Shown piece after piece: positions 14,757-50,716 of a stretch of 64,000 nt of DNA (position 1 is the stretch's first letter; every line of letters starts with the position of its first letter). Source of the stretch: Candidatus Nanohalarchaeota archaeon (GTDB lineage Archaea > EX4484-52 > B79-G9). The notes beneath the pieces are model-generated. The model was not told where the DNA came from. It saw only the letters and a list, made by a program, of their open reading frames with translations, and searched no databases. A program made the position numbers and the translations under genes. The stretch covers positions 15,010 through 79,009 of the forward strand of contig DAOWAN010000001.1 of NCBI GenBank assembly GCA_030634545.1, written 5' to 3'.

Positions 14757-14762
14757 AATACA

Positions 14763-35587: not shown

Positions 35588-35648
35588 TATACTTATAATA
35601 GCCTCTCATTTTTTTATATCTCTCATAAAATATTGTATTGATTGCTTT

Positions 35649-37217: not shown

Positions 37218-37236
37218 CGTATCATCAATCAGCTTA

Positions 37237-38196
37237 TTACTTTTTTAAATACTTTATAAACAAAGCGATTTTTAGTTGAAAAAGCAGATTTAATTCAACA
37301 TTTCCAAAACAATTACATCTGCTGCATACAGGAAAATTAAGTTCTTGAAATCCCTTAAGGAACCCACCTCTGACATTAGGAGGATTCTCTCTGTTATTGC
37401 TTCTACTGCATGCATACATGCTTCCGTCAGGTTCTATCCTGCAAAATATTTTACCTGCACTGCAATTATTGTAATTAAAACCCTCAGGCTTGATAAAATG
37501 TCTTAGGCAATCTGTTGAGTTCATCACATTTTTTTCCTGAGTTAGCTTTCTAATTGCATCTGTAAACTTCTTTTTTTCAGGAATTATGTTTTTAACACCC
37601 TTAGCTGAAAATGTATATGTGTCTACAGGTTGGAAGAGAACACCGACATCCATATCTCTTGCAATTTTCAAGACCTCGTCAAGATGTTCAACATTGTACT
37701 TTGTTATCACAGTTGTGATGTCTACGTTTAAGCCATGCTCTTTTGCAGTCCGGATACCTTCAATTGTTTTTTTGTATGTTCCTTTCCCGCGATGTATTTC
37801 ATGTATCGACTTATCACCGTCAAGACTTATTGAAAGACGATTCAATGGCATTATGTCATCAATTTTTCTCTTCACAAGAGAGCCATTAGAGTTCATTGTG
37901 ACATAAATTTTGCATTCCCTTGCATATTGTATTATTTGTCCTATATCTTCTCTTAATAACGGTTCTCCACCTGTCAGAGAGAGTACTGCTGTCTTTGCAT
38001 TTTTCATTTCTTTGATTAGTCTTAAGATTTCATCTGTTGAAAGTTCATCAGGATTGTTTTTCCATACAGCACAGTACTTGCATGTATAATTACAGCGCCA
38101 CGTTAAAACACAACTGACAATGACAGGAATTTTTTCCTTAAAGAACTTTGCTCTTAGAATTCCTGTCCCTGCACGCAATTTATTTATGAGAGCCAT
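37237..38196 (-). CDS. radical SAM/SPASM-like enzyme, paralog 2
   Basis: Motifs are VLTWRCNYTCKYCAVW and LTGGEPLL. The C-terminal motifs are CSAGKIFCRIEPDGSMYAC and CSRCNCFGN. It is a paralog of 33007..34002. Confidence 0.8.
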   Translation of the reverse strand: MALINKLRAGTGILRAKFFKEKIPVIVSCVLTWRCNYTCKYCAVWKNNPDELSTDEILRLIKEMKNAKTAVLSLTGGEPLLREDIGQIIQYARECKIYVTMNSNGSLVKRKIDDIMPLNRLSISLDGDKSIHEIHRGKGTYKKTIEGIRTAKEHGLNVDITTVITKYNVEHLDEVLKIARDMDVGVLFQPVDTYTFSAKGVKNIIPEKKKFTDAIRKLTQEKNVMNSTDCLRHFIKPEGFNYNNCSAGKIFCRIEPDGSMYACSRSNNRENPPNVRGGFLKGFQELNFPVCSRCNCFGNVELNLLFQLKIALFIKYLKK

Positions 38197-38357
38197 ATCT
38201 TATCTTTATTGTAAGACATATTTAAAATCTTAGCTCTGCTATCTCTTAGACTCTCTTACTTTCAACATCATGATTTCACAGATATAGAATCTATTGACGC
38301 TATGAAATTCAGACATATCACTCAAATTGTCGGATTTACGAGATTTTATGATACAAG

Positions 38358-38441
38358 TCACCCGTAACGATATATCTCATATTTACCCCCGGGATAATAC
38401 ATTCTCGCATGAGTATCCAGAAAAAAGATATCCATTATCAT
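38358..38441 (-). pseudogene. 27-codon relic of a collapsed GT-C-like paralog
   Basis: It translates as MIMDIFFLDTHARMYYPGGKYEIYRYG*. This is the paralog-family N-terminus (FFLD.ATRMYYY) joined directly to the family C-terminus (YSGD.YEIY.Y). Confidence 0.5.
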
Positions 38442-38473
38442 AATATTTGCACCAAAAAACAATAACCATCCAT

Positions 38474-40216
38474 TCATGAGATAAGTTTCTCATAATAGTA
38501 TATTTCGTACTCATCTCCTGAATGGTATATTTCTCTTTTGCGATCTTTTAATATTTTTTTAATGCATCGCAGGTATTCGAAATCATAGAACATTTCAAAA
38601 TCATCTTCAAAGAGAATAAAGTATATATTATATTCCCTGTATCCACTTACAGATTTATGATCAAAGACAGAGCTAGTTGGATAGATTTCTTCGTCATATC
38701 TAAAAAAAAATCCAACGCAATTTTCAAGATCAGACGAATTGAAAGTACAACTAGACAGATTAAAGTCAGTTGTTTTATTGGTTCCATCTGCTCTGTTAGT
38801 TTCAACATTAACTATATTTTCAACACGGGATTCATTAGATATAACACTATTATAAAAATAACATGCCTCATCCACATTCAAAACAATATATCGATTATAT
38901 TTCCCAGAATAAGTAATATATGCCTCTTTTGTATCTCCATCTACAAACAGAACAAGCATACTTTTTTTGTCTGTATTATTTAATATGGTCTGTATCTGTG
39001 CAAATTTTGTAACAATTTCATCTGGAGACTGTGCATAAATGTATTCACAATTGCTGTCTTGCGTACAATCCGAATATACATGAATTGCTGACAAGAGTAA
39101 CGCCGCTATCAAAATAAGGATGACTTTTTCTTCATACTTTGTTTTAAGGAGACCTGATATTGATGATGACCCAAGTATTATGAATGGAACTAAGAAAAAT
39201 ATGAAGTACCTGTTATCTATATCATTGTGAATCATAAAAGGAATTATATTTATTGAATACCATAAAAGTAAGAATAATATCTGTTCTGTTTTTTTTATTA
39301 TGTTTCTTTTGTTTACCAGATATAGAACAACAGGTGCCACTATGAATAGTATTATGTAGAAGTTATATTCAAACATTTCAAGCACAGAGATTATATTCTG
39401 ACTCATATAAACAGAACCGATATCCCCCTCATCGATCTTACCATATAGTGCATCTATAAGAAATGGTATGACAAGAATCACAGCCATAAGCAAATATACA
39501 ATGATATTGATTTTTTTTCGTATTCTTATCGGATTCTTTTTGATAAGAAAGTAAATAATGAGAACCAGAAGCAAAATCATTTCCTCTTTTCTTATCAGGG
39601 CGCAAAACAGCAATGATATAAATGTGAGAAAATAAATCTCTGGTTCTTTTGATTTTATTGAGATGAGTATCAGTATTATTGATAGCATCACGAAGAATGA
39701 TGCTGTTAGTTCTTCTCCCTGTGTACCGGAAAAAAATATATGCCATGGAAGGGCACTTAGTATGATTGCGCTAATAATTGCTGCTTTCTGATCCTTGAAG
39801 AGCAAGTATGTAAGCAGGAAAATCATTATTATAGAGAGACTGCCTATTACGATGTCAAAGATGTGTGCAGACCACATTATATTCCCAGTCAATGAATATA
39901 GAGGAGCGATTAAAAGAGAATACCCTCTTGTATGCGTATCCTGAGGCATCATATGTTCTTCTGAAATAGATACAGCAATATTCCTACTGGTCCCCATAAA
40001 AATCTCTGTTGTCTGCATCTCTAAAAAGGCGAAGCGCACGATGAATCCAAGAATAGTTATGATAAATAACATTAACCATGTTTTTCTATTTATTTTTCTG
40101 TATTCACTTGTGATTAGTTTACGATTTTTCAAGAGAAGTATCATCAATAGCAAAAATACAAATATATAATAATACATTCTAGTTGCAGCATCCAGAAAGA
40201 AGAAATCATAAAGCAT
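38474..40216 (-). CDS. large polytopic membrane protein, GT-C-like, paralog 3
   Basis: 580 aa with the same conserved blocks. It has a longer, insertion-bearing C-terminal soluble domain. Confidence 0.5.
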   Translation of the reverse strand: MLYDFFFLDAATRMYYYIFVFLLLMILLLKNRKLITSEYRKINRKTWLMLFIITILGFIVRFAFLEMQTTEIFMGTSRNIAVSISEEHMMPQDTHTRGYSLLIAPLYSLTGNIMWSAHIFDIVIGSLSIIMIFLLTYLLFKDQKAAIISAIILSALPWHIFFSGTQGEELTASFFVMLSIILILISIKSKEPEIYFLTFISLLFCALIRKEEMILLLVLIIYFLIKKNPIRIRKKINIIVYLLMAVILVIPFLIDALYGKIDEGDIGSVYMSQNIISVLEMFEYNFYIILFIVAPVVLYLVNKRNIIKKTEQILFLLLWYSINIIPFMIHNDIDNRYFIFFLVPFIILGSSSISGLLKTKYEEKVILILIAALLLSAIHVYSDCTQDSNCEYIYAQSPDEIVTKFAQIQTILNNTDKKSMLVLFVDGDTKEAYITYSGKYNRYIVLNVDEACYFYNSVISNESRVENIVNVETNRADGTNKTTDFNLSSCTFNSSDLENCVGFFFRYDEEIYPTSSVFDHKSVSGYREYNIYFILFEDDFEMFYDFEYLRCIKKILKDRKREIYHSGDEYEIYYYEKLIS

Positions 40217-40437: not shown

Positions 40438-40887
40438 ATGAAAAGTGATGATAAAGCATCTTTTTTGAAAAATGTGGACTTTGATTTAAGTAAAAAAGTT
40501 ACCCGGATTAATTTGAATTCTATGCTTTACCCGCGCACTGTTGTGATGAGAGCAGCATACTCATTTACTGACAGTTTCGATGTCGCTGTCGAAGGAGACG
40601 ATTCATCCAGCATTGTTTTCATCAGGGATAATGGTAATGATAAGCTGACACAAGCGGATTTTGAGGACATTGCCTATCGTTTTTATTCCGAACTGATTCA
40701 TGCAAGTGTTGAAGAGACTCAGGCGCGAAGATACGCAGACACAAGAAATGCACTGATAGGAGCTGCACTGAAATCATTATTTCCTATTACTGGTTCTTTG
40801 AACATACCCAAAGACACAAAATCTCCCCCAATTAAAGAACCTAAATTAAAAAATAATATCAAATCTACAACCAAAAACTGCAAATAA
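40438..40887 (+). CDS. small soluble protein, HxsD-like candidate
   Basis: 149 aa. The pattern YPRTVVMRAAYSFTDSFDVAV...IVFI...FYSELIHASVEE...R.ALIGAAL recalls the His-Xaa-Ser system protein HxsD as I remember that family. It lies directly upstream of the Trp-repeat peptide. This assignment is from memory only. Confidence 0.4.
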   Translation: MKSDDKASFLKNVDFDLSKKVTRINLNSMLYPRTVVMRAAYSFTDSFDVAVEGDDSSSIVFIRDNGNDKLTQADFEDIAYRFYSELIHASVEETQARRYADTRNALIGAALKSLFPITGSLNIPKDTKSPPIKEPKLKNNIKSTTKNCK

Positions 40888-40975
40888 CGATTACAATAAC
40901 AGTTTCCACATAAGAATAAATCCCATAACACTCAATTTATTAGTGCCCTGACAATATAACAAAAAATAAGATGCT

Positions 40976-41299
40976 TTGCAAGTGCGTGGTATTGTGAATA
41001 TTAAAGATAAACTAAAGAAGATAAAGCAAATGGACTTATGGAAACCCGGTGACAATGAAAAGACCGGTGTTGTAAACGGGCTGATTCTCTTGGGTGCTGC
41101 TGTTGGAGCCACGCTGTCTTTCCAGGGTCATGATGCTTGTGCAGATGCACCCCTCTGTAGTAATGATGAATGGGGCAACTGGTCAGACTGGACTAATAGC
41201 TGGAACAACTGGTCAGACTGGACTAACTGGAGTGACTGGAGTGATTGGGAGCATTGGGGCAATTGGGGAAACTGGGGAAATTGGGGAAACGGTGACTAA
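40976..41299 (+). CDS. Trp-Xaa-(Asn/Asp/His) repeat peptide, candidate RiPP precursor
   Basis: The frame is open from TTG 40976, but the most likely start is ATG 41030 (MDLWKPGDNEK...). A hydrophobic helix (GLILLGAAVGATLSF) and HDACADAPLCSNDE are followed by WGN WSD WTN S WNN WSD WTN WSD WSD WEH WGN WGN WGN WGN GD. Synonymous codon variation preserves this frame. Confidence 0.65.
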   Translation: MQVRGIVNIKDKLKKIKQMDLWKPGDNEKTGVVNGLILLGAAVGATLSFQGHDACADAPLCSNDEWGNWSDWTNSWNNWSDWTNWSDWSDWEHWGNWGNWGNWGNGD

Positions 41300-41429
41300 C
41301 CAGTTTGATTGAAATACAGATTATAATAACAAAAGCCTGCAAATGGCTTTATACCGCTACAGACCATGCATGGCAATGTCCTGATTGTATAGTTCAGGTC
41401 GTTACTATCTGGACAAACTGAACCAAAAA

Positions 41430-41767
41430 CCAATAGACCTTAACTATCCGGGCGAATCTCAAAGATTCGCTGGATTTCGCAAATCGTACCGATTTCCTAT
41501 ATCGCCAAAAACGCATGCGTTTTTGCGACACTAAAATTCCCGAGGAATTTTAAGAGTTGCGAAATTAGGAATTGGGTAGCAATTTCGCAATCATAAAAAT
41601 CACAAAGTGATTTTTAATGATCCTAACAAATCACATTGATTTGTTGGATGCTAAAATTGCATCGCAATTTTAAGCATATGGAAAAGTCATATAGTCCATT
41701 TTGAAGACGATAGTCTTCGAAAGCTTGGCATGTAATGCCATGAAATAGTTATGACTTTTACTATATT
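41430..41767. repeat. mosaic hairpin-array intergenic repeat, copy B
   Basis: It shares its 5' end, a 98-nt identical block (41595-41692) and its 3' end with copy A. It shares a 117-nt block (41476-41592, 6 mismatches) with copy C. It ends 2 nt before the radical-SAM gene start. Confidence 0.85.
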
Positions 41768-41769
41768 AC

Positions 41770-43605
41770 GTGAACAATATGTTGAATTCAAAATTATATT
41801 GCGCTTTAGGTTATGCCTGTAATAATAACTGCCTTATCTGTGTTGTTGATTCTGAAAAAAAAGCCAAAGCAAACCTGCAGACCGTTGAAATTATTAACTA
41901 TCTAAAAATACTGGATACAAATCCCGAGATAAAGAATATTGAGTTTTCAGGTGGTGAACCTACAGTCAGACATGATTTATTTTATATACTTGACTGGGTG
42001 CACCAGCATCATCCAAGAATAACTTATACTATTTTCAGTAATGGACGACGCTTTTGCGATATTGATTTTGCAAATAAAATCTCAGGATATCCTGTAAAGG
42101 ATCTTCTTATTGCAATTCATGGCAAAGATGCAAAGACACATGATTTATTGACACAAAGAAAAGGAAGTTTCAATCAGACATTTATGGGCATCAGAAATCT
42201 TTCTGAGAACAAGGTTAATGTTGTCCTGAAGATCATACCCAACCAGCTGAATTATAGACAGATCCCGGACATTGTAAGGATGTTTGTCAGCCATTTCCCA
42301 TATGTCAGGACCATGACTATCAATGGAATTGATATCGGAGGTTGTGCTCTTGATAATATCGATAAAATAGGTCTTCGCCTTACAGATGCGATACCATATA
42401 TCCAGAAAGGACTGGACATCGCAAATGAGCATGGTCTGAAAGTTTGCACTTATTCAATACCAGAATGTCTGTTTGATGCAGAACATAGAAAATATGTGGG
42501 TCCCCAAAAGAGTCCCCTGTACAATTACAAGTCACCATTTCACGAACTGGACGACAAAGGTGACGAGTATGGATTTGGTCCTCTCTGCAGTGCTTGTTCT
42601 GCAAAAGACAACTGTGCCGGCTGCTGGAACACTTACTTAAGTGCTGTCGGGACCGATGAATTAAAACCGATAGTCAGACCAAAAAGCAATCCCTTATCAT
42701 CACCTAAACCCATGCAAAAAAATCGTTATGTTATTGAGATAACCGGTGCCTGTAATAATGATTGTATTTTCTGCCTGTACAACGGCAGCAGAAGTGAATC
42801 TATTTCATATGAAGATATTGTCTCACGCATACAAAGTTTTAACATGAAAAAGGGAGAGCAAGTATCATTATGTGGAGGTGAGCCGACATTAAGCATGGAT
42901 TTTGTAAAGATAATAGACTATGCTGTTTCAAAAGGGTTTCGCATCTCTGTAATATCAAACGGGAGAAAATTTTCAGATAAGCTATTTACAGAACAGGTAA
43001 TTAATGCCGGAGTATCTCATATCACTATTGATATACACGCTCATACAAAAGAACTTCATGACTCCATAACCCAAAAAGATGGGAGTTTTGATGAGACTGT
43101 TCGCGGCATAAGAAACCTGCAATCTACTGGCGTGGCACTCACACTCAAAGTGATAGTCAATAAACTGAATTATAGATATCTAAAAAACATCATTGAATTC
43201 ATTGCTGTAAATTTCACAGGTATAAAATCAGTCGTTTTTGCATCCATCAGTATCAGAGGCAGTGCATTGAAGAACAAAGAACAAGCAATTGTGAAATTGA
43301 ATGAAGCAGCACCATACATACAAAAAGCAATAGATAAAGCACAGGCATCAGGCATTCGTGTTGATCTGGATATGTTTCCATATTGTATTTTTGAACATAA
43401 GTACTTTAAGCAGATCCGTATGAGAAAACAGGACAATTTATTTCTTCTGGATGATAGTTGTGTTGTGAAACCCGACAATGCTTCAAGTGTTAAAGGCAGC
43501 TTTCCATTTTGCAGGGAATGCCGGTTCGCCAATAAATGCCCAGGTGTATGGAAAAACTACAGGGATATTTACGGTGAGAGTGAATTTAAATGTATTCACA
43601 AATGA
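41770..43605 (+). CDS. fused tandem-duplicated radical SAM enzyme (two HxsC-like halves)
   Basis: 611 aa. Half 1 has CALGYACNNNCLICVV, and half 2 (from about residue 315) has EITGACNNDCIFCLY. The halves align over SGGEPT, SNGR.F, TQ.KGSF..T..GIRNL, LK.I.N.LNYR and APYIQK. Each half ends with a Cys motif (CSACSAKDNCAGCW and CRECRFANKCPGVW). Confidence 0.8.
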   Translation: MNNMLNSKLYCALGYACNNNCLICVVDSEKKAKANLQTVEIINYLKILDTNPEIKNIEFSGGEPTVRHDLFYILDWVHQHHPRITYTIFSNGRRFCDIDFANKISGYPVKDLLIAIHGKDAKTHDLLTQRKGSFNQTFMGIRNLSENKVNVVLKIIPNQLNYRQIPDIVRMFVSHFPYVRTMTINGIDIGGCALDNIDKIGLRLTDAIPYIQKGLDIANEHGLKVCTYSIPECLFDAEHRKYVGPQKSPLYNYKSPFHELDDKGDEYGFGPLCSACSAKDNCAGCWNTYLSAVGTDELKPIVRPKSNPLSSPKPMQKNRYVIEITGACNNDCIFCLYNGSRSESISYEDIVSRIQSFNMKKGEQVSLCGGEPTLSMDFVKIIDYAVSKGFRISVISNGRKFSDKLFTEQVINAGVSHITIDIHAHTKELHDSITQKDGSFDETVRGIRNLQSTGVALTLKVIVNKLNYRYLKNIIEFIAVNFTGIKSVVFASISIRGSALKNKEQAIVKLNEAAPYIQKAIDKAQASGIRVDLDMFPYCIFEHKYFKQIRMRKQDNLFLLDDSCVVKPDNASSVKGSFPFCRECRFANKCPGVWKNYRDIYGESEFKCIHK

Positions 43606-43625
43606 TAATATCATGTGATTGATTT

Positions 43626-45047
43626 ATGGATGACAAAACATTTGCACTGAATGAATATTTTACAAAATCTTTAGCAGATAATCGCATTCTTGTAACTACA
43701 CGGCATGGTTCATGGTGTGAACTGGACAAAAGAGAGTATGACTTGCTACAAAGACAGAATTTTGAACACGACAAAGTCCTGTTTAAGAAACTAAAAGACA
43801 TAGGCATTATTCTGACAGAAAGTAATGTTGAATCTGTTGTGAAAAGGACTGCCCTGATGTTTGATGATTACAGGCAGCGCAATTTTACATGCGTGATTAA
43901 CCTCACAAATAAATGTAACCTGGATTGTGCATATTGCCTTGCAGAATCAGGTCCAAATCAGGATGAACAGGATATGTCTATTGAGAATATGTATTCATTG
44001 GTAAAATTTATTAATGGCTCTCCATGGGATAGCATAGATATTGAATTCCAGGGTGGAGAGTCTACCCTGCGATTTGATCTTATCAGGAAGTTTGTTGAAA
44101 TTATTGAGAGTAATCTGGATAAGCATAAGGAAATAAGACATTTTGTACTGGTCACAAATCTCACCTGTTTTAATAAAGAGATTGCAGATTATATTGTCAA
44201 AAAGAATTTTCGGATTGGCTCTTCACTGGATGGACCAGAGAAACTGCATGATTTTCAAAGGGCATTTCCTGACGAAAGTGGTTCTTATGAAAAAGTAGTT
44301 TACTGGGCAGATTACCTGAAAAAACGAGGAGTACATATCGGGTTTTCATCTACAATCACAAAAAAAAGTCTTGAATTCGGTGCGCGCGCAATTATCGATG
44401 AATACATGAACAGAGGTATGGAATATGTTATGCTCCGACCGTTTACATCATGTGGAAGAGGTGAGGACAGGACTGACCTTGTGATGGAACCAGAGGATTT
44501 TTTTAAGTTCTGGAAAGATGCTGTCGATTACCTTGTTGAACTTGCAGATAACGGAATATACATGTCTGAAAAGAATCTTGGACAGATGATAAAAAATATT
44601 TTTACACCTTACAGAACATATATGTGCCTAAAAAGACCATGTGGTGCTGCTATTTCCCAGATGTCCTTTATGCAGGATGGCCCGATATATGCATGTGATT
44701 CCGGGAAAAGGATTGAAGCATTGAAGATCGGCAACTATGTCAGTGGAAAATATGCAGATACATTACTAAATAGTCTGCAACTTAGGACTTTGTCTTCTGA
44801 AGCGCAGCCATTGTGTGATACATGTGTATATACTGCATTTTGCGGTACCTGCATAAGCAGGATGTTTTCAAGCTGGTCTGATTCTGTAGGAAGAACACCA
44901 AGGGATTTTGACTGCAAAGTTCACAAGTGGATGTTCACATACATTTTTAAGAAAATGAATGATCCTCGATATGCGAAACTATTTAGCAGACTAGCTGGCG
45001 CCGGGCGCGGTGATGATACACCATGCAGAACGCATGAGGTCAGTTGA
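43626..45047 (+). CDS. radical SAM/SPASM-domain peptide-maturase-like enzyme (HxsB/anSME-like)
   Basis: Motifs are INLTNKCNLDCAYCLA (CxxxCxxC) and FQGGESTL. SPASM-type C-terminal motifs are CGAAISQMSFMQDGPIYACDSG and CDTCVYTAFCGTC. Confidence 0.85.
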   Translation: MDDKTFALNEYFTKSLADNRILVTTRHGSWCELDKREYDLLQRQNFEHDKVLFKKLKDIGIILTESNVESVVKRTALMFDDYRQRNFTCVINLTNKCNLDCAYCLAESGPNQDEQDMSIENMYSLVKFINGSPWDSIDIEFQGGESTLRFDLIRKFVEIIESNLDKHKEIRHFVLVTNLTCFNKEIADYIVKKNFRIGSSLDGPEKLHDFQRAFPDESGSYEKVVYWADYLKKRGVHIGFSSTITKKSLEFGARAIIDEYMNRGMEYVMLRPFTSCGRGEDRTDLVMEPEDFFKFWKDAVDYLVELADNGIYMSEKNLGQMIKNIFTPYRTYMCLKRPCGAAISQMSFMQDGPIYACDSGKRIEALKIGNYVSGKYADTLLNSLQLRTLSSEAQPLCDTCVYTAFCGTCISRMFSSWSDSVGRTPRDFDCKVHKWMFTYIFKKMNDPRYAKLFSRLAGAGRGDDTPCRTHEVS

Positions 45048-45920
45048 ATGGATCTTTTCTGGCTAATCAAATTACTTAGTATTGTTATTGCCCTTCGTTA
45101 TCTGAGGATATTTAGCATGCATTCTGTTGCAATTTATTTAACCGGGGCATTTGCCATGGTTTTTCTGAAACCAAGAGCGCATTATTTCGTACCAGAATAT
45201 ATTTTAATAATGACAGTTTCATTGTTTTTTGCTTATATTTTATCTCTTTCAGTATATGACTTTTTAAGAAATATCAAAAGTATTAAATTTGAATCCATTT
45301 TGAGTAAAGATATTCTTGAAAGATATGGCGACTTCTTTTTTGCCATGTTTGTGATTTCATCCATATTATCTTTTTTTAATCTCCCATTTATCGGGACAAT
45401 ATTTTTTATGATAGTATTTTTTATTGCTCTTGAGATTATCCGCCTTAATATGCATGGCGAAACACAATGGTTCTTTAATTACAGAATATGGTCCGCTGTC
45501 CTTTTTTTGTATTTTGTGTTCTTTAACCAGTTCCCGGTTCTTCTGATTGTTATTCAACAAAGTATTTTTCTATGTGGACTGTTATTTATCTTCTCATTCG
45601 TACGATACTTCAACGTATATGCCTGCCCATTAGATGAACTCAAGGCAGGAATGGTTCCTGCTGAAACAATCATAAAAAAAGGCAGTACATTTACCAAGGA
45701 AAATGTGCCATATATCTCCCCTTTTGTTTATCTCAGGAAAAAAGTGATTAATAAGATATTTAAAAGACATGAACTGATAACTCCTTTCAGGCACTTGACC
45801 AATGACTCCATCAAGATATTGAGAACTAAGACACATTTCGATATTTTAATGGTACAAAGAACTATAGATATGAGCATTTTTTTAATTTTAGGCATCATTG
45901 CAACCTATTTTGTCAGGTAA
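45048..45920 (+). CDS. polytopic membrane protein of unknown function, translationally abutting the SPASM enzyme
   Basis: 290 aa with about 6-7 hydrophobic helices and a basic soluble C-terminal segment. The ATG follows the upstream TGA directly (45047/45048). Confidence 0.55.
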   Translation: MDLFWLIKLLSIVIALRYLRIFSMHSVAIYLTGAFAMVFLKPRAHYFVPEYILIMTVSLFFAYILSLSVYDFLRNIKSIKFESILSKDILERYGDFFFAMFVISSILSFFNLPFIGTIFFMIVFFIALEIIRLNMHGETQWFFNYRIWSAVLFLYFVFFNQFPVLLIVIQQSIFLCGLLFIFSFVRYFNVYACPLDELKAGMVPAETIIKKGSTFTKENVPYISPFVYLRKKVINKIFKRHELITPFRHLTNDSIKILRTKTHFDILMVQRTIDMSIFLILGIIATYFVR

Positions 45921-45969
45921 TTTATTGTATAGTGAAGGCATGAAATAAATGAGCAAACATCACAAAAAA

Positions 45970-46320
45970 CCAATATGCCTTCGTCTATCCGGGAAAATCT
46001 TCGATTTTCTGGATTTTCGAAATGTTCACCCATTTCGAATTTCGAAAATTGGAAATTTATGATAAATTTTCAAAATTTCGCAAATCGTTCCGATTTCCTA
46101 TATCGCTAAAAACGCATGCGTTTTTGCGACACTAAAATTCCCGTGGAATTTTAAGTGTTGCGAAATTAGGAATTGCGTAGCAATTCCGCAATCCTAAAAT
46201 TGCAAAGCAATTTTAAGGATTCTGGCAAATCCACAGATTTGCTGAATCATAAAAATAACAACGTGATTTTTAATGATATGGCAAGGCACTGTACTCAAGT
46301 TATTAGTGCCTTGACTATAG
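45970..46320. repeat. mosaic hairpin-array intergenic repeat, copy C
   Basis: The 5' end ctatccggg plus hairpin plus tggat matches copies A and B. The 117-nt block 46077-46193 matches copy B. Additional modules include ttcgaaatg-N6-catttcgaa, ggaattgc-gta-gcaattcc, aaaattgc-aaa-gcaatttt and gcaaatc-cac-gatttgc. It lies between convergent genes. Confidence 0.85.
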
Positions 46321-46335
46321 ATACATTGCATCTGA

Positions 46336-48147
46336 CTAACAAGCAGAATCCGTAGTATGTATACCAGTGCATGAATTACCATCACAATCATTATCTTCTA
46401 CTTTATCAATAAGGATATAAAACTGAAGTGTCGGATTCACCCACTGATTTGTGCTAACATCATAATATTTGTATTTTGCATCTGTAATCTTTACAAGAAC
46501 TTTGATATGTTTCAAAGCATAAAAGTGACCATAGGTCACAGTACAGGTTACTTTACGACACTTAATGGGATTGCCATCAGTGCCACAGTCACCATAACCA
46601 CACGTGCAGCTACTCACACTACAATCACTTTTCATATGATCATGATATGTCAGATAAGCATCAGATCCAGTCTCTACATTATCCCCGCCAGTGCATTCAT
46701 CCGTCCCGGAACCGAAAGAGGTATGATCATTTGTATGACCATCTGCACAGTCCATTCTAATACTTACAGGACCAACGAACTCCCACACCAGATCATCAGA
46801 ATTATAAATCGTATTAAGATTAGTTTCAGCACTATTCAGAGCAGATTGAATAATATTTAAGAAATCATTCTCATCATATTTATCCGTATCATCATTAGGA
46901 CACAAAGGTTCACAGCTATCACAACAACCACCCAGACAGTTACCACTACACTCATCGCAACAATCACGCGTTTCACTTTCACGATGATAGTCATCAAGAG
47001 CATTAAGCCCATCAAATACCTTGTTTTTTATGAGTGTATCAAGATTCAACAAAAGATATTCACCTGCATCACTAAGCGCATAATGCCTGACTTTGATCTC
47101 CTCTTCTATCAGCCCGGAACTCGTTATTGTTACAAGATTATCATCCGGTTTTCCAAACAGGTCTTTTACTGAAAGTGTTATGCCATCTTCCTCAGACCAT
47201 ACTATACCTTTTGTGAAACTACCGGGAATATATATACCCTGCAGTGGTTTGATTTCTGTAACGATATCATTTTCCAGTTCGGAATTTTTTTCGGTAAGCA
47301 GCGTTTCCATATTAGCATGATATTTATTAAGATTTTCTGTAAACAGTTCATTTTGTGCATGTATAATATTATTATCATAAATTGTAATACCTATTTGCTT
47401 TATTACTGCAACCTCATCTACTTCACCAATTGAATTAGTACCATTGAACTGTATAGTCAATGGACATTCATTTCCAGCCGCAAGATTACCTGCACCAATA
47501 TCAGTTATTATGTACTCATATGTCCCGTCATAGGTTATTATATTTGGAGTCGGAATTACCGGTTCAATGGTAATCCCAGGACCCCCTGTAATCTGCACTT
47601 CTCCTTTCTTTATCATAATCAGATTGACAACCATGTGCATATCATATACATCATCAGCTAGTTCCTCTATATACTGTTGAAGTTCACCATCCTTATTAGA
47701 CTTAACGCAATAGTTGAGTTCCCCCACCAGAATATTAGGATCTTTAGCTACCAGATATGGCACTCGCATATCTGTTCTCATGCAGCCCGGAAGCGCCCAA
47801 TAAGGTATCGCTGTAGATCCGCTTTCAATTCTCAGTCTGGGTCCTGTACCATCCACATAGCCATCCGCATTCGTATCGACAAGAGTATCCTCTGGAAAGT
47901 TACCACCCGCCATCAACTCTTCATGCGTTTCCATCAATGAATGAAATGCCGCTGTCTTCTCAAAACCCTGCTTTATATTCTGGATGTTTTTGTCCATTGT
48001 AAGGCTGAAGTATTTATTGTAAAGATTAATTGATTCCTTTGTACCCCATATTAATTCACCGCTTACTCTTAGAATCATGACACCAAGTACAACCATTATA
48101 ATAAATACACTTATCATTACCGTCATATTTGCTTTATTATAGTTCAT
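46336..48147 (-). CDS. large Cys-rich surface protein with pilin-like N-terminal helix
   Basis: 603 aa. The N-terminus is MNYNKANMTVMISVFIIMVVLGVMIL. It contains dense Cys clusters (RDCCDECSGNCLGGCCDSCEPLC) and is the last gene of the minus-strand pilin-like operon. Confidence 0.6.
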   Translation of the reverse strand: MNYNKANMTVMISVFIIMVVLGVMILRVSGELIWGTKESINLYNKYFSLTMDKNIQNIKQGFEKTAAFHSLMETHEELMAGGNFPEDTLVDTNADGYVDGTGPRLRIESGSTAIPYWALPGCMRTDMRVPYLVAKDPNILVGELNYCVKSNKDGELQQYIEELADDVYDMHMVVNLIMIKKGEVQITGGPGITIEPVIPTPNIITYDGTYEYIITDIGAGNLAAGNECPLTIQFNGTNSIGEVDEVAVIKQIGITIYDNNIIHAQNELFTENLNKYHANMETLLTEKNSELENDIVTEIKPLQGIYIPGSFTKGIVWSEEDGITLSVKDLFGKPDDNLVTITSSGLIEEEIKVRHYALSDAGEYLLLNLDTLIKNKVFDGLNALDDYHRESETRDCCDECSGNCLGGCCDSCEPLCPNDDTDKYDENDFLNIIQSALNSAETNLNTIYNSDDLVWEFVGPVSIRMDCADGHTNDHTSFGSGTDECTGGDNVETGSDAYLTYHDHMKSDCSVSSCTCGYGDCGTDGNPIKCRKVTCTVTYGHFYALKHIKVLVKITDAKYKYYDVSTNQWVNPTLQFYILIDKVEDNDCDGNSCTGIHTTDSAC

Positions 48148-48176
48148 TTATTCACTTCATATTTTCTTGTATTCTG

Positions 48177-48842
48177 CTAGACTAGGAGATCTTTGCAACA
48201 ACAGTGATTTATGTCACATGCATATTTATCTTTGCATATACCGCCAAATATCTGACACGTCTTTTTTTGTACACAGTACAAATCATCATCCTCTGGACAC
48301 GTCGATTTATCAGTATCTATTTCAAAATTTTTCTTTATTTTCAATACTGCAATAGCAATCCCATTATTTTTTGGTAGAGCTATGTGTTCCTCTTCTATTG
48401 AGATATCACCTTCATCCAGTTCCCATCCAACTGTCAGATAATTCATATCTCCATATTTCACATAAAAATAGTACTCATCAATGTAGAGTCTATCTGCATA
48501 TTCTTCTATGCATTCTCCTATCTGTATGATATCTTCATTGCCATTATATTCTATTTTAATGTCATCATCTGCATCAGGGATTGGACTTTGCGAAAGTGCT
48601 ATTGCGATTACATCTTTGAGTGGCAGTGTTGTATTTGAAGTGCAGTGATTATTGTTCAAAAGCACATATAGATACGTATCCACAGTTGATGTTTCCTCTG
48701 CAAATTTTAATGTTTCAACTGCCTGTTTTGTGAAAAGTACTTGTGCCAGAATTATCACCACAGCACAGACCAGCAGTATTACCATAGTCAAATAGATGTC
48801 AAACATCATTATTCCCTTCTTGTGCGTGTTTCGTGTATTCAT
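48177..48842 (-). CDS. class III signal peptide (pilin-like) protein, Cys-rich C-terminus
   Basis: 221 aa. The N-terminus is HKKG|IMMFDIYLTMVILLVCAVVIIL and the C-terminus is CPEDDDLYCVQKKTCQIFGGICKDKYACDINHCCC. Confidence 0.6.
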   Translation of the reverse strand: MNTRNTHKKGIMMFDIYLTMVILLVCAVVIILAQVLFTKQAVETLKFAEETSTVDTYLYVLLNNNHCTSNTTLPLKDVIAIALSQSPIPDADDDIKIEYNGNEDIIQIGECIEEYADRLYIDEYYFYVKYGDMNYLTVGWELDEGDISIEEEHIALPKNNGIAIAVLKIKKNFEIDTDKSTCPEDDDLYCVQKKTCQIFGGICKDKYACDINHCCCKDLLV

Positions 48843-48844
48843 AT

Positions 48845-50050: not shown

Positions 50051-50499
50051 CTATTTTGTTTTATGTCACAGCATTCTTCCCCTGCATCACATATTGTTAT
50101 CTGCGGCTTGCATTCAATTATTCTTTTTGATATGCATATCCTTTCTGTGCCTGCCATATTCTCACTATTAATTACATTTTTCTGGTAATGAGGCATTGCA
50201 AACGAGTGTATCATTCCAGATTCATCTGCAAGAGTGTGCGTTTGTTCAATAAATGTCAGACGTACATGCGTCTCGTTCAGTTCATATGCAAAGTTCTTTT
50301 TCAGATCAAATTGCCTTACACCCTGTTCAACTGTCGCTAGATTCACAATTATACTTGTAATCGCACGTGTTGTCTGATCTGTTATTATGTCAAGTTCTGC
50401 ACCAGTAAGTCCAGTCATCATTTTCGTACCAACAACCACTACAAGAGCAGCAACAATTAACGAACCTAAAATAGTGATAATCTCTACAGTTTCTGACAT
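50029..50499 (-). CDS. membrane-anchored/pilin-like protein (156 aa)
   Basis: The N-terminus is MSETVEIITILGSLIVAALVVVVG and the C-terminus is Cys-rich (CKPQITICDAGEECCDIKQNSC). Confidence 0.5.
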   Translation of the reverse strand: MSETVEIITILGSLIVAALVVVVGTKMMTGLTGAELDIITDQTTRAITSIIVNLATVEQGVRQFDLKKNFAYELNETHVRLTFIEQTHTLADESGMIHSFAMPHYQKNVINSENMAGTERICISKRIIECKPQITICDAGEECCDIKQNSCKYVTQ

Positions 50500-50529
50500 A
50501 TATTACAACCTCTCTTCACTTACTACAAT

Positions 50530-50694
50530 CTATTTCTTTGATGCAACATCCACAATTTCTGCCGGTAGGTTAACAAGTCTCAATATATCAAGAACATTTC
50601 CAAAAACCCGGTTTACTGCAATGACAATCACAGCAGCAGCTAACATCGCAATCAATAATCCACGTATCCAGCGCGGAATTTCCATGACACCCAT
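50530..50694 (-). CDS. small pilin-like protein (54 aa, not in the supplied ORF track)
   Basis: It translates as MGVMEIPRWIRG|LLIAMLAAAVIVIAVNRVFGNVLDILRLVNLPAEIVDVASKK. A GGTGA motif lies 6 nt upstream of the ATG. Confidence 0.55.
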   Translation of the reverse strand: MGVMEIPRWIRGLLIAMLAAAVIVIAVNRVFGNVLDILRLVNLPAEIVDVASKK

Positions 50695-50716
50695 TTATCA
50701 TCACCTGTTTTACATT

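What the first reader, a model, noticed from the sequence alone, without database searches (positions are those of the whole stretch)
40438..45920. Candidate archaeal triceptide/His-Xaa-Ser-like RiPP locus built on a Trp-Xaa-Xaa repeat peptide
Seen in the sequence: five co-directional genes.
- A 149-aa soluble protein.
- An 89-107-aa peptide whose last 42 residues are 13 consecutive W-x-(N/D/H) triplets.
- A 611-aa protein made of two homologous radical SAM halves.
- A 473-aa radical SAM enzyme with SPASM-type auxiliary-cluster Cys motifs.
- A 290-aa polytopic membrane protein whose ATG abuts the previous stop.

Established knowledge: radical SAM/SPASM three-residue cyclophane-forming enzymes (triceptide RiPPs; the Xye, Grr, Fxs and His-Xaa-Ser families) crosslink the ring of an aromatic residue to Cbeta of the residue two positions downstream, in repeated aromatic-X-X motifs. 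The His-Xaa-Ser system is defined by a repeat peptide HxsA, two radical SAM proteins HxsB and HxsC, and a small protein HxsD. Other radical SAM enzymes also crosslink Trp, as in streptide and darobactin.

Inference: this locus has the same four-part logic with Trp in place of His. It differs in having an unusually long all-Trp repeat core, a fused double HxsC-like enzyme, and an archaeal (DPANN-like) genomic context. I do not recognise that combination as described.
Basis: partly seen in the sequence, partly recalled or inferred. Interest (0 to 1): 0.9.

Follow-up and report, generated by a model that had tools for sequence, protein, structure and literature searches.

The report
Tryptophan-rich archaeal cousin of Hxs system
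This archaeal locus is a previously undescribed tryptophan-based relative of the His-Xaa-Ser (Hxs) system: radical SAM enzymes sit beside a small exported peptide whose tail is almost one-third tryptophan, and its chemistry and purpose are still unknown.

Summary

**What the genes are**
- 40438-40887 is HxsD-like.
- 41779-43605 is a fusion of two HxsC-like radical SAM domains.
- 43626-45047 is an HxsB-like enzyme with a peptide-recognition domain, a radical SAM core and a SPASM domain.
- 40994-41299 encodes a conserved 101-aa precursor with a basic leader, a signal-like hydrophobic segment and an acidic tail holding 13 Trp.

**How widespread it is**
- The same module recurs in at least 14 DPANN-type archaeal loci and forms a clade separate from canonical HxsB.
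- All members have Trp-rich cores.
- W-x-x periodicity appears only where HxsC is fused (5 of 5 loci). Single-HxsC loci have W-x-N-H-C-W followed by further Trp, mostly as W-x-W-x-W (9 of 9).

- Hxs is not an established triceptide family.
- No component reaches its NCBIfam cutoff as a single domain.
- Fused or tandem HxsC occurs elsewhere.
- The membrane protein shares only the C-terminal domain of EppA-like prepilin peptidases and lacks their catalytic Asp residues.
- A hairpin-array mobile element (MITE-like) separates the peptide gene from the maturase genes.

**Verdict**
This is a new variant of a known kind. Trp(i) to (i+2) cross-linking of an exported peptide is plausible but untested.

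The parts
40438..40887 (+). HxsD-like small protein (149 aa)
   Evidence: TIGR03976 HxsD scores 40.1 bits, E 3e-10, below the cutoff of 50. Orthologues carry a precomputed Pfam PF27806 HxsD hit and sit in the same position in L001, L002, L003, L005-L007, L085-L088 and L093.
40994..41299 (+). Precursor peptide, 101 aa from GTG 40994 (the ORF listing gives TTG 40976, 107 aa). Basic leader MNIKDKLKKIKQ; invariant K-T-G-V-x-N-x-L; hydrophobic segment residues 26-43; invariant Ala50 (A-C-A, predicted signal-peptidase-type site); invariant Cys55; acidic Trp-rich core.
   Evidence: The family is conserved in the window and L001-L007, L085-L088, L090, L091 and L093. Codon-position bias shows purifying selection. 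The part after the hydrophobic segment has net charge -10. There is no NCBIfam or Pfam hit.
41171..41296 (+). Trp-rich core: 13 Trp in 42 residues, W-x-(N/D/H) units. The last four WGN units arise from a 9-nt tandem DNA repeat.
   Evidence: Statistics are. Tandem repeats at 41244-41289 have period 9 and 85-89% matches. The first about 25 residues of the core, including the irregular WTNS, are conserved in P0121, P0122, P0123 and L002.
41388..41765 (.). MITE-like (miniature inverted-repeat mobile element) hairpin-array repeat inserted between the peptide gene and the maturase genes
   Evidence: About 10 consecutive perfect hairpins with 8-10 bp stems and 3-nt loops. RNA fold z-score is -9.3. 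Other copies lie at about 1314-1540 and 45925-46290, with shared ends TATAGT.... It is absent from the orthologous loci, where the gap is about 20-100 nt. An independent assembly breaks inside it.
41779..43605 (+). Fused double HxsC-like radical SAM protein (608 aa). N half about 41779-42690, C half about 42691-43605.
   Evidence: The halves are 31% identical. Each half scores about 155 bits against TIGR03977 (cutoff 267.9); the whole protein scores 300.2. Both halves keep an invariant CX3CX2C and four invariant C-terminal Cys. The AF2 model shows two radical SAM domains joined by a disordered linker at residues 301-315.
43626..45047 (+). HxsB-like maturase (473 aa): peptide-recognition (RRE-like) domain, radical SAM core and SPASM domain
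   Evidence: TIGR03978 scores 300.1 bits, E 3e-89, over residues 13-455, below the cutoff of 370. C97/C101/C104 plus eight SPASM Cys are invariant. The AF2 model has pLDDT 86.5 with an N-terminal three-strand, three-helix domain. Best Foldseek matches are CteB, anSME, TigE, ChlB and SuiB.
45048..45920 (+). Polytopic membrane protein (290 aa) with an EppA-type (Arc_PepC) C-terminal domain and no catalytic Asp motifs
   Evidence: Orthologues follow the HxsB-like gene in every clade locus that extends that far. Arc_PepC scores 14.8 bits here and 25.6 bits in L003. Profile comparison with the EppA-like peptidases of canonical Hxs loci gives 99% probability, E 5e-18, but only over the last about 110 residues. 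No acidic residue is conserved in the N-terminal membrane part.
45925..46290 (.). Second nearby copy of the hairpin-array repeat, flanking the maturase block on the other side
   Evidence: 46075-46199 is 94% identical to 41474-41598. Alignment is; hairpins are listed.
46336..48147 (-). Convergent Cys-rich protein (603 aa) with an N-terminal hydrophobic anchor; a conserved neighbour of the module
   Evidence: An orthologue lies convergently right after the membrane-protein gene in L001, L002, L003, L006, L007, L008, L085-L088, L090 and L091. It has 22 Cys. There is no family or PDB match.

Best explanation
The locus is a tryptophan-based branch of the Hxs-type radical SAM peptide-maturation systems that are common in DPANN archaea.

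**Shown**
- An HxsD-like protein, a fused pair of HxsC-like radical SAM domains and an HxsB-like maturase (peptide-recognition domain, radical SAM core, SPASM domain) are encoded with a conserved 101-aa peptide.
- That peptide occupies the HxsA position and has the same build as archaeal HxsA peptides: a basic N-terminal leader, a hydrophobic signal-like segment, a small-x-small site, then a repetitive core.
- Here the core is acidic and Trp-rich instead of His-x-Ser.

**Inferred mechanism**
1. The HxsB-like enzyme binds the leader through its N-terminal recognition domain.
2. It uses 5'-deoxyadenosyl radical chemistry to cross-link side chains in the core. The most likely link is each Trp to the residue two positions downstream (Asn, Asp or His here; Trp in relatives with W-x-W cores). 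That would cost about 2 Da per link, with up to 13 links.
3. The HxsC-like domains act with HxsD, as the HxsC-HxsD complex of E. coli does, and add a second modification or couple modification to N-terminal processing.
4. The product is exported, with the 290-aa membrane protein acting as a non-catalytic docking or export partner.
5. It ends up at the outer face of the membrane, beside the conserved Cys-rich surface protein encoded next door.

**Biological role**
The role is unknown. An envelope-associated function is the best guess, either structural or adhesive, or a barrier against viruses by analogy with E. coli HXS.
For: **Homology of three components to HxsD, HxsC and HxsB**
- HxsB numbering is collinear with the E. 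coli enzyme. The Cys ligands are at 97/101/104 and 397/400 here, against 98/101 and 399/402 in E. coli.

**Conserved module**
- At least 14 loci share the module although their HxsB-like proteins are only 38-73% identical.
- All have Trp-rich peptides with invariant K-T-G-V-x-N-x-L, Ala50 and Cys55.

**Separate clade**
- The HxsB-like proteins form a clade apart from canonical HxsB.

**Parallel architecture in canonical systems**
- Canonical DPANN and CPR (bacterial candidate phyla radiation) HxsA peptides have the same leader, hydrophobic segment and repeat layout.
- About half of those loci encode an EppA-like membrane peptidase. The window's membrane protein retains the C-terminal domain of that peptidase.

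**Peptide-modifying fold**
- The HxsB-like model has a recognition-like N-terminal domain.
- Its best structural matches are all peptide-modifying SPASM enzymes: CteB, anSME, TigE, the cyclophane synthase ChlB and SuiB.
- Both HxsC halves keep all cluster ligands.

**Support for (i, i+2) chemistry on Trp**
- The +2 residue is always N, D or H in the window, and Trp in W-x-W relatives.
- An unrelated peptide with a Sec signal and the same W-x-(D/N) period-3 core (P0203) lies directly upstream of a GrrM/OscB-family cyclophane-forming maturase. That enzyme scores 441 bits against a cutoff of 310.
- Triceptides are defined by aromatic-to-C-beta links on aromatic-X-X motifs.

**Co-variation of enzyme and core**
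- Fused HxsC goes with a period-3 core in 5 of 5 loci. Single HxsC goes with W-x-N-H-C-W cores, mostly period 2, in 9 of 9.

**HxsC-HxsD complex and export-linked maturation in E. coli**
- Reported in PMC13128918.
Against: - No expression, mass or activity data exist for any member of this clade.
- No component reaches its NCBIfam trusted cutoff as a single domain: HxsB 300 against 370, HxsD 40 against 50, each HxsC half about 155 against 268.
- The leader shows no detectable homology to HxsA3/HxsA4-type leaders (hhalign probability 19%).
- The only measured Hxs chemistry is +8 Da on a single SHRSS motif, not -2 Da per repeat. Transferring cyclophane chemistry to an Hxs-type enzyme is therefore conjecture.
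- The HxsB-like enzyme scores best, outside Hxs, against the thioether-forming PapB family (140 bits), and the peptide has an invariant Cys followed by acidic residues. A Cys thioether is an equally open possibility.
- The core is strongly acidic, unlike the basic DNA-binding repeats proposed for E. coli HxsA. The defence mechanism does not transfer directly.
- Export is inferred from sequence only; no signal-peptide predictor was available.
- The membrane protein has no recognisable catalytic residues.
- L090 and L091 lack an HxsD gene within 6 kb.
- The enzyme-core co-variation may reflect a single ancestral event.
Confidence: 0.6

Rival explanations
1. First reader's version. The locus is a biosynthetic cluster for a diffusible triceptide-class natural product. 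[quoted passage not shown]
For: - The core consists of aromatic-X-X units, the defining triceptide substrate motif.
- An almost identical W-x-(D/N) repeat peptide (P0203) is paired with a bona fide GrrM/OscB triceptide maturase.
- The HxsB-like fold resembles the multiple cyclophane synthase ChlB and the Trp cross-linker SuiB, among others.
- A signal-like leader would allow release.
Against: - The maturase is not in any characterised cyclophane-synthase family. It scores 65.7 bits against GrrM/OscB (cutoff 310), 108.8 against DynA (cutoff 450), 61.1 against DarW and 59.8 against WgkB.
- The Hxs family has no demonstrated cyclophane chemistry.
- Most family members lack the period-3 motif.
- The module sits in a stable chromosomal neighbourhood next to surface-protein genes in distantly related archaea. 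It is not found in variable biosynthetic islands.
- No protease or ABC exporter typical of such clusters is present.
Confidence: 0.2
2. It is an archaeal antiviral defence system working like E. coli HXS. The matured peptide sits outside the membrane and blocks entry of viral DNA.
For: - HxsB, HxsC and HxsD homologues are present.
- E. coli HXS needs exactly these proteins to mature an exported repeat protein that blocks phage DNA entry.
- The window peptide also looks exported.
Against: - The core has net charge about -10. The proposed E. coli mechanism relies on basic repeats binding DNA.
- There is no peptidoglycan-binding domain, and the peptide is about 50 aa after the predicted cleavage.
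- There is no match in PADLOC beyond generic radical SAM similarity.
- The locus is syntenic and apparently vertically inherited, flanked by housekeeping and surface-protein genes. It does not look like a mobile defence island.
- The KAP NTPase with HEAT repeats that hits QatA/PifA models lies 33 kb away.
Confidence: 0.12
3. The radical SAM enzymes act on something other than the Trp-rich peptide, such as the adjacent Cys-rich surface protein, a lipid or a cofactor. The small ORF would then be an independent small membrane protein that merely travels with them.
For: - The 603-aa Cys-rich protein is as tightly linked to the module as the peptide.
- anSME, a protein-modifying enzyme, is among the best structural matches.
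- A U32-family gene and other radical SAM genes lie nearby in several loci.
Against: - The peptide sits in the HxsA position, directly upstream of the maturase genes and on the same strand, in every locus.
- It is the only component whose core co-varies with HxsC architecture.
- The HxsB-like enzyme has a recognition-like domain typical of enzymes that act on leader peptides.
- The Cys-rich gene is on the opposite strand.
Confidence: 0.06
4. The Trp-repeat ORF is a chance low-complexity reading frame over a DNA tandem repeat and is not a gene.
For: Part of the core overlaps 9-nt and 18-nt tandem repeats. An alternative frame is also open across the repeat.
Against: - The leader and core are conserved in at least 14 loci with third-position-biased substitutions.
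- The alternative frame has no conserved leader.
- The Trp enrichment has P about 7e-17.
Confidence: 0.02

Closest known systems
HXS antiphage system of E. coli and Klebsiella (HxsA, HxsB, HxsC, HxsD; Li et al., Nat Commun 2026, PMC13128918; families first defined by Haft and Basu, cited in PMC9062424)
   Same: - HxsB-like SPASM radical SAM enzyme, HxsC-like radical SAM enzyme and small HxsD-like protein, encoded with a repeat-containing substrate that carries an N-terminal export-type signal.
- The Cys ligand positions of HxsB are collinear.
   Different: - The substrate is a 101-aa peptide with an acidic Trp-rich core. [quoted passage not shown]
- Gene order is D-A-C-B plus a membrane protein, not D-B-C-A.
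- HxsC is duplicated and fused.
- The host is archaeal.
- All scores fall below the equivalog cutoffs.
- Whether it defends against viruses was not tested.
HxS-repeat Hxs systems of DPANN archaea, CPR (candidate phyla radiation) bacteria and Clostridia (HxsA3/HxsA4-type peptides, NF038309 and NF038313)
   Same: - Same peptide architecture: basic leader, K-(T/I)-G followed by a hydrophobic segment, a small-x-small site, then a repeat core.
- Same enzyme set, often with an extra membrane protein and sometimes tandem or fused HxsC.
   Different: - The core is (H-x-S)n, not Trp-rich.
- Leader sequences are not detectably homologous.
- Their membrane protein is a complete EppA-like A24 peptidase. 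The window's protein keeps only the C-terminal domain.
- The HxsB proteins form a separate clade at 26-37% identity.
Triceptide systems, especially GrrM/OscB (TIGR04261) with Gly-rich repeat precursors
   Same: - Repeated aromatic-X-X units.
- A W-x-(D/N) period-3 peptide nearly identical in style (P0203) is encoded next to a GrrM/OscB enzyme.
- The maturase is a SPASM enzyme.
   Different: - The window maturase is not a member (65.7 bits against a cutoff of 310).
- Triceptide systems lack HxsC and HxsD partners.
- The window peptide matches no GrrA model.
- The chemistry here is unknown.
Darobactin and dynobactin maturases (DarE, DynA), and Trp cross-linkers SuiB and WprB
   Same: - SPASM radical SAM enzymes that link Trp to a residue two or more positions away.
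- Family members with W-N-W-S-W-C-W cores recall the W-x-W pattern of darobactin. This is a comparison from memory; WprB is documented in PMC11851443.
   Different: - Sequence scores are low: DynA 108.8 against a cutoff of 450, DarW 61.1.
- Those systems use a single enzyme and short cores in Proteobacteria or Firmicutes.
CteB and PapB-type thioether (ranthipeptide/SCIFF) maturases
   Same: - Best solved-structure match is CteB (phmmer 67 bits; Foldseek E 5e-22 over the full length including the N-terminal domain).
- Best non-Hxs NCBIfam hit is PapB at 140 bits.
- The peptide has an invariant Cys followed by acidic residues.
   Different: - PapB scores 140 against a cutoff of 340.
- There is only one invariant Cys, and the core is dominated by Trp.

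Membership tests
His-Xaa-Ser (Hxs) system | HxsB equivalog: TIGR03978 score at or above 370 bits | tested here: not met
   300.1 bits, E 2.6e-89, full-length match over residues 13-455. A clear homologue, but in a separate clade.
His-Xaa-Ser (Hxs) system | HxsC equivalog: TIGR03977 score at or above 267.9 bits | tested here: inconclusive
   The fused protein scores 300.2 bits only because two domains add up. Each half scores 155.4 and 155.8, and the single HxsC-like protein of L003 scores 155.1.
His-Xaa-Ser (Hxs) system | HxsD: TIGR03976 score at or above 50 bits (LYW and LLNDYxLRE motifs) | tested here: not met
   40.1 bits, E 3.4e-10. Orthologues carry Pfam PF27806 HxsD in precomputed annotation. 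The motifs read MLYP and ELIHASVEE, so they are only partly kept.
His-Xaa-Ser (Hxs) system | HxsA substrate with His-Xaa-Ser repeats | tested here: not met
   The peptide has no H-x-S repeat. It hits no HxsA, HxsA3 or HxsA4 model, whereas a canonical DPANN HxsA gives weak hits. Leader-to-leader hhalign probability is 19%.
His-Xaa-Ser (Hxs) system | Co-located genes for a repeat peptide, two radical SAM proteins and the small protein | tested here: met
   The arrangement is conserved in at least 12 loci with all parts present.
His-Xaa-Ser (Hxs) system | Antiphage activity through an exported, matured HxsA | not testable with these tools
   Known only for E. coli. The core here is acidic rather than basic.
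[quoted passage not shown] | Precursor core with aromatic-X-X motifs | tested here: met
   13 W-x-(N/D/H) units. The definition is taken from PMC11499958.
[quoted passage not shown] | Maturase belongs to a characterised 3-CyFE family (XyeB, GrrM/OscB, FxsB, YhhB, AmcB and others) | tested here: not met
   GrrM/OscB scores 65.7 bits against a cutoff of 310, and the other families are not among the top 25 hits. By contrast, the L092 enzyme next to P0203 scores 441 bits.
[quoted passage not shown] | Aromatic ring to C-beta cross-link on residue i+2 (-2 Da each) | not testable with these tools
   Requires mass spectrometry and NMR of the modified peptide.
Peptide-modifying radical SAM/SPASM maturases that act on leader peptides (RiPP-type) | CX3CX2C cluster, SPASM auxiliary-cluster Cys, and an N-terminal peptide-recognition domain | tested here: met
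   C97/C101/C104 plus C334, C339, C357, C397, C400, C406, C409 and C430 are invariant. The AF2 model (pLDDT 86.5) has strands at 11-16, 20-25 and 30-34 followed by three helices. Foldseek top hits are CteB, anSME, TigE, ChlB and SuiB.
A24 prepilin peptidase (EppA-like), considered for the 290-aa membrane protein | Two catalytic Asp motifs in the Peptidase_A24 membrane domain | tested here: not met
   There is no Peptidase_A24 hit. Twelve orthologues share no conserved acidic residue in the N-terminal membrane part. hhalign aligns only the C-terminal about 110 residues.
A24 prepilin peptidase (EppA-like), considered for the 290-aa membrane protein | Arc_PepC C-terminal domain (PF06819, gathering score 23.4) | tested here: inconclusive
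   14.8 bits in the window protein, 25.6 in the L003 orthologue and 23.3 in L006. Family-to-family hhalign gives 99% probability, E 5e-18.

The most novel reading that the evidence does not exclude
Hxs-type enzymes may in general be (i, i+2) side-chain cross-linkers. This clade would then turn an exported peptide into a continuous ladder of up to 13 fused or adjacent Trp macrocycles, a poly-triceptide or darobactin-like rod. That rod would be displayed on the surface of DPANN archaea as part of a conserved envelope module, together with the neighbouring Cys-rich protein. The duplicated HxsC would have evolved to handle the period-3 register. If so, this would be the first archaeal Trp-cyclophane peptide, the densest cross-linked ribosomal peptide known, and a clean substrate for solving the chemistry of HxsB and HxsC, which remains unresolved.
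Probability: 0.2. Interest if true: 0.85.

Novelty: new variant of a known kind. Interest (0 to 1): 0.6.

Why it matters
**Open chemistry.** The Hxs families have been known from genomes since 2011, and in 2026 they were shown to be a potent antiphage system in enterobacteria. What HxsB and HxsC actually do to their substrate is still unsolved.

**What this clade adds.**
- The same enzyme set has been re-targeted in DPANN archaea from His-x-Ser repeats to an acidic Trp-rich core.
- The architecture of HxsC (single or fused double) tracks the register of the Trp repeats.
- This natural variation gives a comparative handle on which enzyme reads which part of the substrate.

**Wider points.**
- Hxs-type systems are abundant outside Pseudomonadota, contrary to the distribution inferred from HxsA alone.
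- Non-proteobacterial versions often include a prepilin-peptidase-like fifth component.
- A heavily cross-linked Trp peptide on the surface of ultra-small symbiotic archaea would bear on how these cells build their envelope or resist viruses.

Tried and rejected
1. **Homology of the leader to HxsA3/HxsA4-type leaders.** hhalign of two curated leader alignments gave only 19% probability. I therefore describe the architecture as parallel, not homologous.
2. **The 290-aa membrane protein as the leader peptidase.** This looked attractive because canonical loci encode EppA-like A24 peptidases and all peptides share K-T-G before the hydrophobic segment. I rejected it as a catalytic assignment because there is no A24 domain and no conserved Asp.
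3. **Independent fusions of HxsC as evidence for convergent co-evolution with period-3 cores.** The C-terminal halves of the two fused groups are each other's best matches, so one ancestral event is more likely. The neighbour-joining tree has short internal branches and cannot decide.
4. **Rfam and tRNA scans of the window.** Nothing was found.
5. **PADLOC.** It returned only generic viperin-type radical SAM similarity and has no Hxs models.
6. **PDB sequence searches.** The Cys-rich neighbour and HxsD gave nothing significant.
7. **Foldseek on the fused HxsC model.** It matched only generic radical SAM cores, with SkfB best, which says nothing about chemistry.
8. **NCBIfam GrrA or HxsA-type models on eight Trp-rich peptides.** No hits.
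9. **Literature.**
   - I found no description of Trp-rich Hxs-like peptides or of radical-SAM-modified peptides in DPANN archaea.
   - One search for OscB was wasted on rice gene names.
   - The OscB paper itself is not in the library.
10. **Searching the other loci for the hairpin-array repeat.** No copies were found outside the window.

Full report
**1.

The + strand carries five ORFs in a row:
- 40438-40887, 149 aa.
- A small ORF ending at 41299.
- 41770/41779-43605, 611 or 608 aa.
- 43626-45047, 473 aa.
- 45048-45920, 290 aa.

The small ORF ends in WGNWSDWTNSWNNWSDWTNWSDWSDWEHWGNWGNWGNWGNGD.
- It has 13 Trp in 42 residues. The spacing is 3 eleven times and 4 once.
- N, D or H sits two positions after every Trp.
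- With a background Trp frequency of 0.92%, the probability is 6.5e-17 per stretch. Nothing comparable exists elsewhere in the window.
- The last four WGN units come from a 9-nt tandem DNA repeat.

The two halves of the long protein are 31% identical (E 1e-49).

**2. The peptide is a real, conserved gene, and its start can be corrected**

Homologues of the 473-aa protein include a tight clade of about 27 protein clusters (38-99% identical). The sources label them only as 'radical SAM protein' from unclassified archaea, Aenigmarchaeota or Nanohalarchaeota.

I fetched their contigs and the GTDB genomes that hold relatives. A small ORF lies in the same position in every case. A profile of its first 45 residues finds it in the window and in L001-L007, and in none of the 77 canonical Hxs loci.

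All orthologues start M-x-(I/V/L)-x-(D/N/E)-K.... The window peptide therefore most likely starts at GTG 40994 and is 101 aa long. The internal ATG would remove a conserved leader.

Substitutions between the window, L001 and L002 concentrate at third codon positions: 23-29 changes against 6-8 at second positions. There are 20-24 synonymous codon changes in the 59 leader codons.

Invariant features are K23-T24-G25-V26, N28, L30, G34, Ala50, Cys55 and the first core Trp.

**3. What the proteins are**

NCBIfam profile scores:

| Protein | Model | Score (bits) | Cutoff (bits) |
|---|---|---|---|
| 149 aa | HxsD, TIGR03976 | 40.1 (E 3e-10) | 50 |
| 473 aa | HxsB, TIGR03978 | 300.1 (E 3e-89, end to end) | 370 |
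| Fused protein, whole | HxsC, TIGR03977 | 300.2 | 267.9 |
| Fused protein, each half alone | HxsC, TIGR03977 | about 155 | 267.9 |
| Single HxsC-like protein of L003 | HxsC, TIGR03977 | about 155 | 267.9 |

These are clear homologues that sit outside the curated equivalog families.

*HxsB-like enzyme.*
- Across 26 clade members it keeps C97/C101/C104 and eight further invariant Cys in a SPASM pattern.
- An AlphaFold2 model built on that alignment is confident (pLDDT 86.5, pTM 0.86). Its N-terminus has three strands followed by three helices, as in RiPP recognition elements.
- Its best structural matches are peptide- or protein-modifying SPASM enzymes: CteB over the full length, anSME, TigE, the multiple cyclophane synthase ChlB and SuiB.

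*Fused HxsC.*
- Each half keeps CX3CX2C and four invariant C-terminal Cys, so both halves look functional.
- The model shows two radical SAM domains joined by a disordered linker.
- Foldseek finds only generic radical SAM cores.

*The peptide.* It matches no Pfam or NCBIfam family, including the HxsA, HxsA3, HxsA4 and Gly-rich-repeat models.

**4. What is known about Hxs**

The families were defined bioinformatically by Haft and Basu (cited in PMC9062424).

A 2026 paper (PMC13128918) shows that E. coli HXS is an antiphage system.
- HxsB, HxsC and HxsD are all required for N-terminal processing, export and a +8 Da modification of HxsA. The modification maps to one SHRSS motif.
- HxsC binds HxsD.
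- Mature HxsA sits in the periplasm and is thought to bind incoming DNA through its basic repeats.
- The radical chemistry is explicitly unresolved.

Nothing in the literature I could search treats Hxs as a triceptide family. The His-modifying triceptide synthases HaaB and HtkB are described without reference to Hxs.

**5. The wider archaeal picture**

Most of the more than 1,700 HxsB homologues at about 30-37% identity come from DPANN archaea, CPR (candidate phyla radiation) bacteria, Omnitrophota, Myxococcota and Clostridia.

Next to them lie HxsA peptides built as follows:
- a basic leader (KIKKxISSFLxGEEGKISK);
- K-(T/I)-G followed by a short hydrophobic segment;
- a small-x-small site;
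- (H-x-S)n repeats.

The window peptide has the same layout with a Trp-rich core. However, the two leader families are not detectably homologous (hhalign probability 19%).

About half of these canonical loci (37 of about 77) also encode a membrane protein of about 370 aa with Peptidase_A24 and Arc_PepC domains. It resembles the archaeal prepilin peptidase EppA.

The window's 290-aa protein and its 11 orthologues match that family with 99% probability (E 5e-18), but only over the last 110 residues or so. Their N-terminal membrane part has no conserved acidic residue. I therefore call it an EppA-C-domain membrane partner, not a peptidase.

**6. Structure of the Trp clade**

The HxsB-like proteins of the Trp-peptide loci form one clade against canonical HxsB. 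Two locus types occur.

*Type 1: single HxsC-like gene (299-352 aa).*
- Found in nine loci: L003/L004, L005, L006, L007, L085-L088 and L093.
- Cores start W-x-(N/D)-H-(C/S)-W. In five of the nine loci they continue as W-x-W-x-W, for example SQWKNHCWNWSWCWCWGWGH; L005, L007, L086 and L093 continue differently.

*Type 2: fused double HxsC (587-608 aa).*
- Found in five loci: the window, L001, L002, L090 and L091.
- Cores have period 3, for example GWSNWGSWGSWSNWCRW and GWSNWAQWCDWCDWSDWCNW.

The extra C-terminal HxsC domains of the two fused subgroups are each other's best matches: 190-223 bits, against 134-190 bits to single HxsC proteins or N-terminal halves. The fusion therefore probably arose once.

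Fused or tandem HxsC is also found in canonical CPR and DPANN systems, so the fusion itself is not unique.

The family is rare:
- A word-indexed search of 5.8 billion proteins found 3 relatives of the peptide.
- A full profile search of 1.84 billion cluster representatives found 18 hits, about 13 of them true members.

**7. Clues to mechanism**

- After the hydrophobic segment the peptide is strongly acidic. Net charge is -10 in the window and -5 to -10 in most relatives.
- The invariant Ala50 sits in an A-x-A or V-x-A context right after the hydrophobic segment. This fits signal-peptidase-type cleavage and would leave a product of about 51 aa starting DAPLCSNDEW. This is an inference from sequence alone.
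- The profile search also picked up P0203. This is an unrelated peptide with an ordinary Sec-type signal and the core NWSDWGDWANWTNVWTDWADWANWADWADWGDWGDWGNY.
- P0203 lies directly upstream of a GrrM/OscB-family cyclophane-forming maturase that scores 441 bits against a cutoff of 310. W-x-(D/N) period-3 repeats are therefore, by genomic association, substrates of a characterised triceptide synthase family.
- This makes Trp(i) to residue(i+2) cross-linking the most economical guess for the window core. The W-x-W relatives fit the same (i, i+2) logic with Trp as acceptor.
- Against this, the window enzyme is not in that family (65.7 bits). Its best non-Hxs hit is the thioether-forming PapB family (140 bits). 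The peptide also has an invariant Cys followed by acidic residues.
- The only measured Hxs modification is +8 Da.

**8. Genomic context**

- In all twelve clade loci that extend far enough, the membrane-protein gene is followed by a convergent gene for a large Cys-rich protein with an N-terminal hydrophobic anchor. In the window this is 46336-48147.
- In several loci, further small Cys-rich proteins follow, homologous to 48177-50499.
- Orthologous loci sit among housekeeping genes: fibrillarin, Nop and S17e in L086, and RNase P subunits in L090 and L091.
- This looks like a vertically inherited envelope-related neighbourhood rather than a mobile defence or biosynthetic island. PADLOC recognises nothing specific.
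- Together with the acidic core, this lowers the probability of a direct functional analogy to E. coli HXS, though it does not exclude one.

**9.

- The 470 nt between the peptide gene and the maturase genes hold about ten consecutive perfect hairpins with 8-10 bp stems and 3-nt loops. The RNA folding z-score is -9.3.
- It is one of three copies in the window of a modular repeat with inverted ends of the form TATAGT...ACTATA. The copies lie at about 1314-1540, 41388-41765 and 45925-46290.
- Orthologous loci have only about 20-100 nt at this position.
- An independent assembly of the same population breaks inside the element and is identical across its junction with the maturase gene.
- It looks like a MITE (miniature inverted-repeat mobile element).
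- Two copies bracket the HxsC, HxsB and membrane-protein block.
- All five genes remain intact.

**10. Verdict**

It is an Hxs-like four-part system (really five-part) with Trp in place of His, in a DPANN archaeon. I found no description of it in NCBIfam release 20, Pfam or the searchable literature.
- It is not shown to be a triceptide system.
- Several features called unusual are either shared with other non-proteobacterial Hxs systems (fused HxsC, membrane protein) or specific to a subclade (period-3 repeats).
- I rate it a new variant of a known kind, with interest 0.6.

Noticed in passing
window 41388-41765; also about 1314-1540 and 45925-46290: A modular repeated element made of a chain of short perfect hairpins (8-10 bp stems, 3-nt loops), with shared inverted ends of the form TATAGT...ACTATA. 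RNA fold z-score is -9.3. There are three copies in 64 kb with different numbers of hairpin modules, and two of them bracket the maturase genes. There is no Rfam match, and it is absent from all related loci.
   Followed up: partly
window 46336-52540 (- strand): A block of Cys-rich proteins with N-terminal hydrophobic anchors (603, 221, 401, 156 and 607 aa). Two have prepilin-like K-G cleavage motifs (HKKG-IMMF and CKG-QVHLF). The 603-aa gene is convergent with the Hxs-like module in all 12 related loci that are long enough. None has a known family.
   Followed up: partly
L009-L084 (canonical Hxs loci), e.g. L047 3935-5062 and L010 497-1576: About half of the non-proteobacterial His-x-Ser systems encode an EppA-like A24 prepilin peptidase next to HxsD and HxsB, and their HxsA peptides share K-(T/I)-G before a hydrophobic segment. 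The published four-gene definition, and the reported 99.7% restriction to Pseudomonadota (based on HxsA), miss this large group in DPANN archaea, CPR (candidate phyla radiation) bacteria and Clostridia.
   Followed up: partly
L092 385-1920 (Logan SRR20722001 contig): A 106-aa peptide (P0203) with an ordinary signal peptide and a 13-Trp W-x-(D/N) period-3 core lies directly upstream of a GrrM/OscB-family cyclophane-forming radical SAM maturase (441 bits, cutoff 310). It looks like a convergent Trp-repeat substrate in a characterised triceptide family.
   Followed up: partly
window 27568-28578 (- strand); L003 5468-6517, L006 1107-2054, L085 3533-4591, L088 982-2067: A Peptidase_U32-family gene lies between the HxsD-like gene and the peptide gene in four single-HxsC loci. 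In the window and in L001 it lies a few kb upstream. Other U32 members are Fe-S hydroxylases (from memory), so it may be an accessory modifier.
   Followed up: no
window 33007-40216 (- strand): Three paralogous PMT_2 (GT-C fold) membrane glycosyltransferase-like genes are interleaved with two small radical SAM genes, immediately upstream of the HxsD-like gene. This arrangement is specific to the window. W-x-x-W is the eukaryotic C-mannosylation motif, and that reaction is also carried out by a GT-C enzyme (from memory). I did not test this lead.
   Followed up: no
L001 2390-5108 and L002 503-3177: The two closest relatives of the window locus carry a second module just upstream: a further HxsB-like SPASM enzyme (268.6 bits against TIGR03978), a second HxsD-like protein and a DUF483-like protein of about 285 aa. 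No peptide gene is obvious there. The window lacks this module.
   Followed up: no
window 17468-18127 (- strand gene 15650-18166): The N-terminal part of the type IV pilus or archaellum-type ATPase (T2SSE domain) contains six copies of an 87-nt tandem repeat. The repeat encodes a 29-aa unit rich in Lys and Ser (GQSLKKAKDEIRKKMQKVNDSSKGKSGST). Two T2SSF genes lie next to it at 13767-15632.
   Followed up: no
window 5698-7767 (+ strand): A KAP-family P-loop NTPase fused to HEAT repeats matches the PADLOC models QatA (166.7 bits), PDC-S20 and PifA. It is a candidate defence gene and lies 33 kb from the Hxs-like locus.
   Followed up: no
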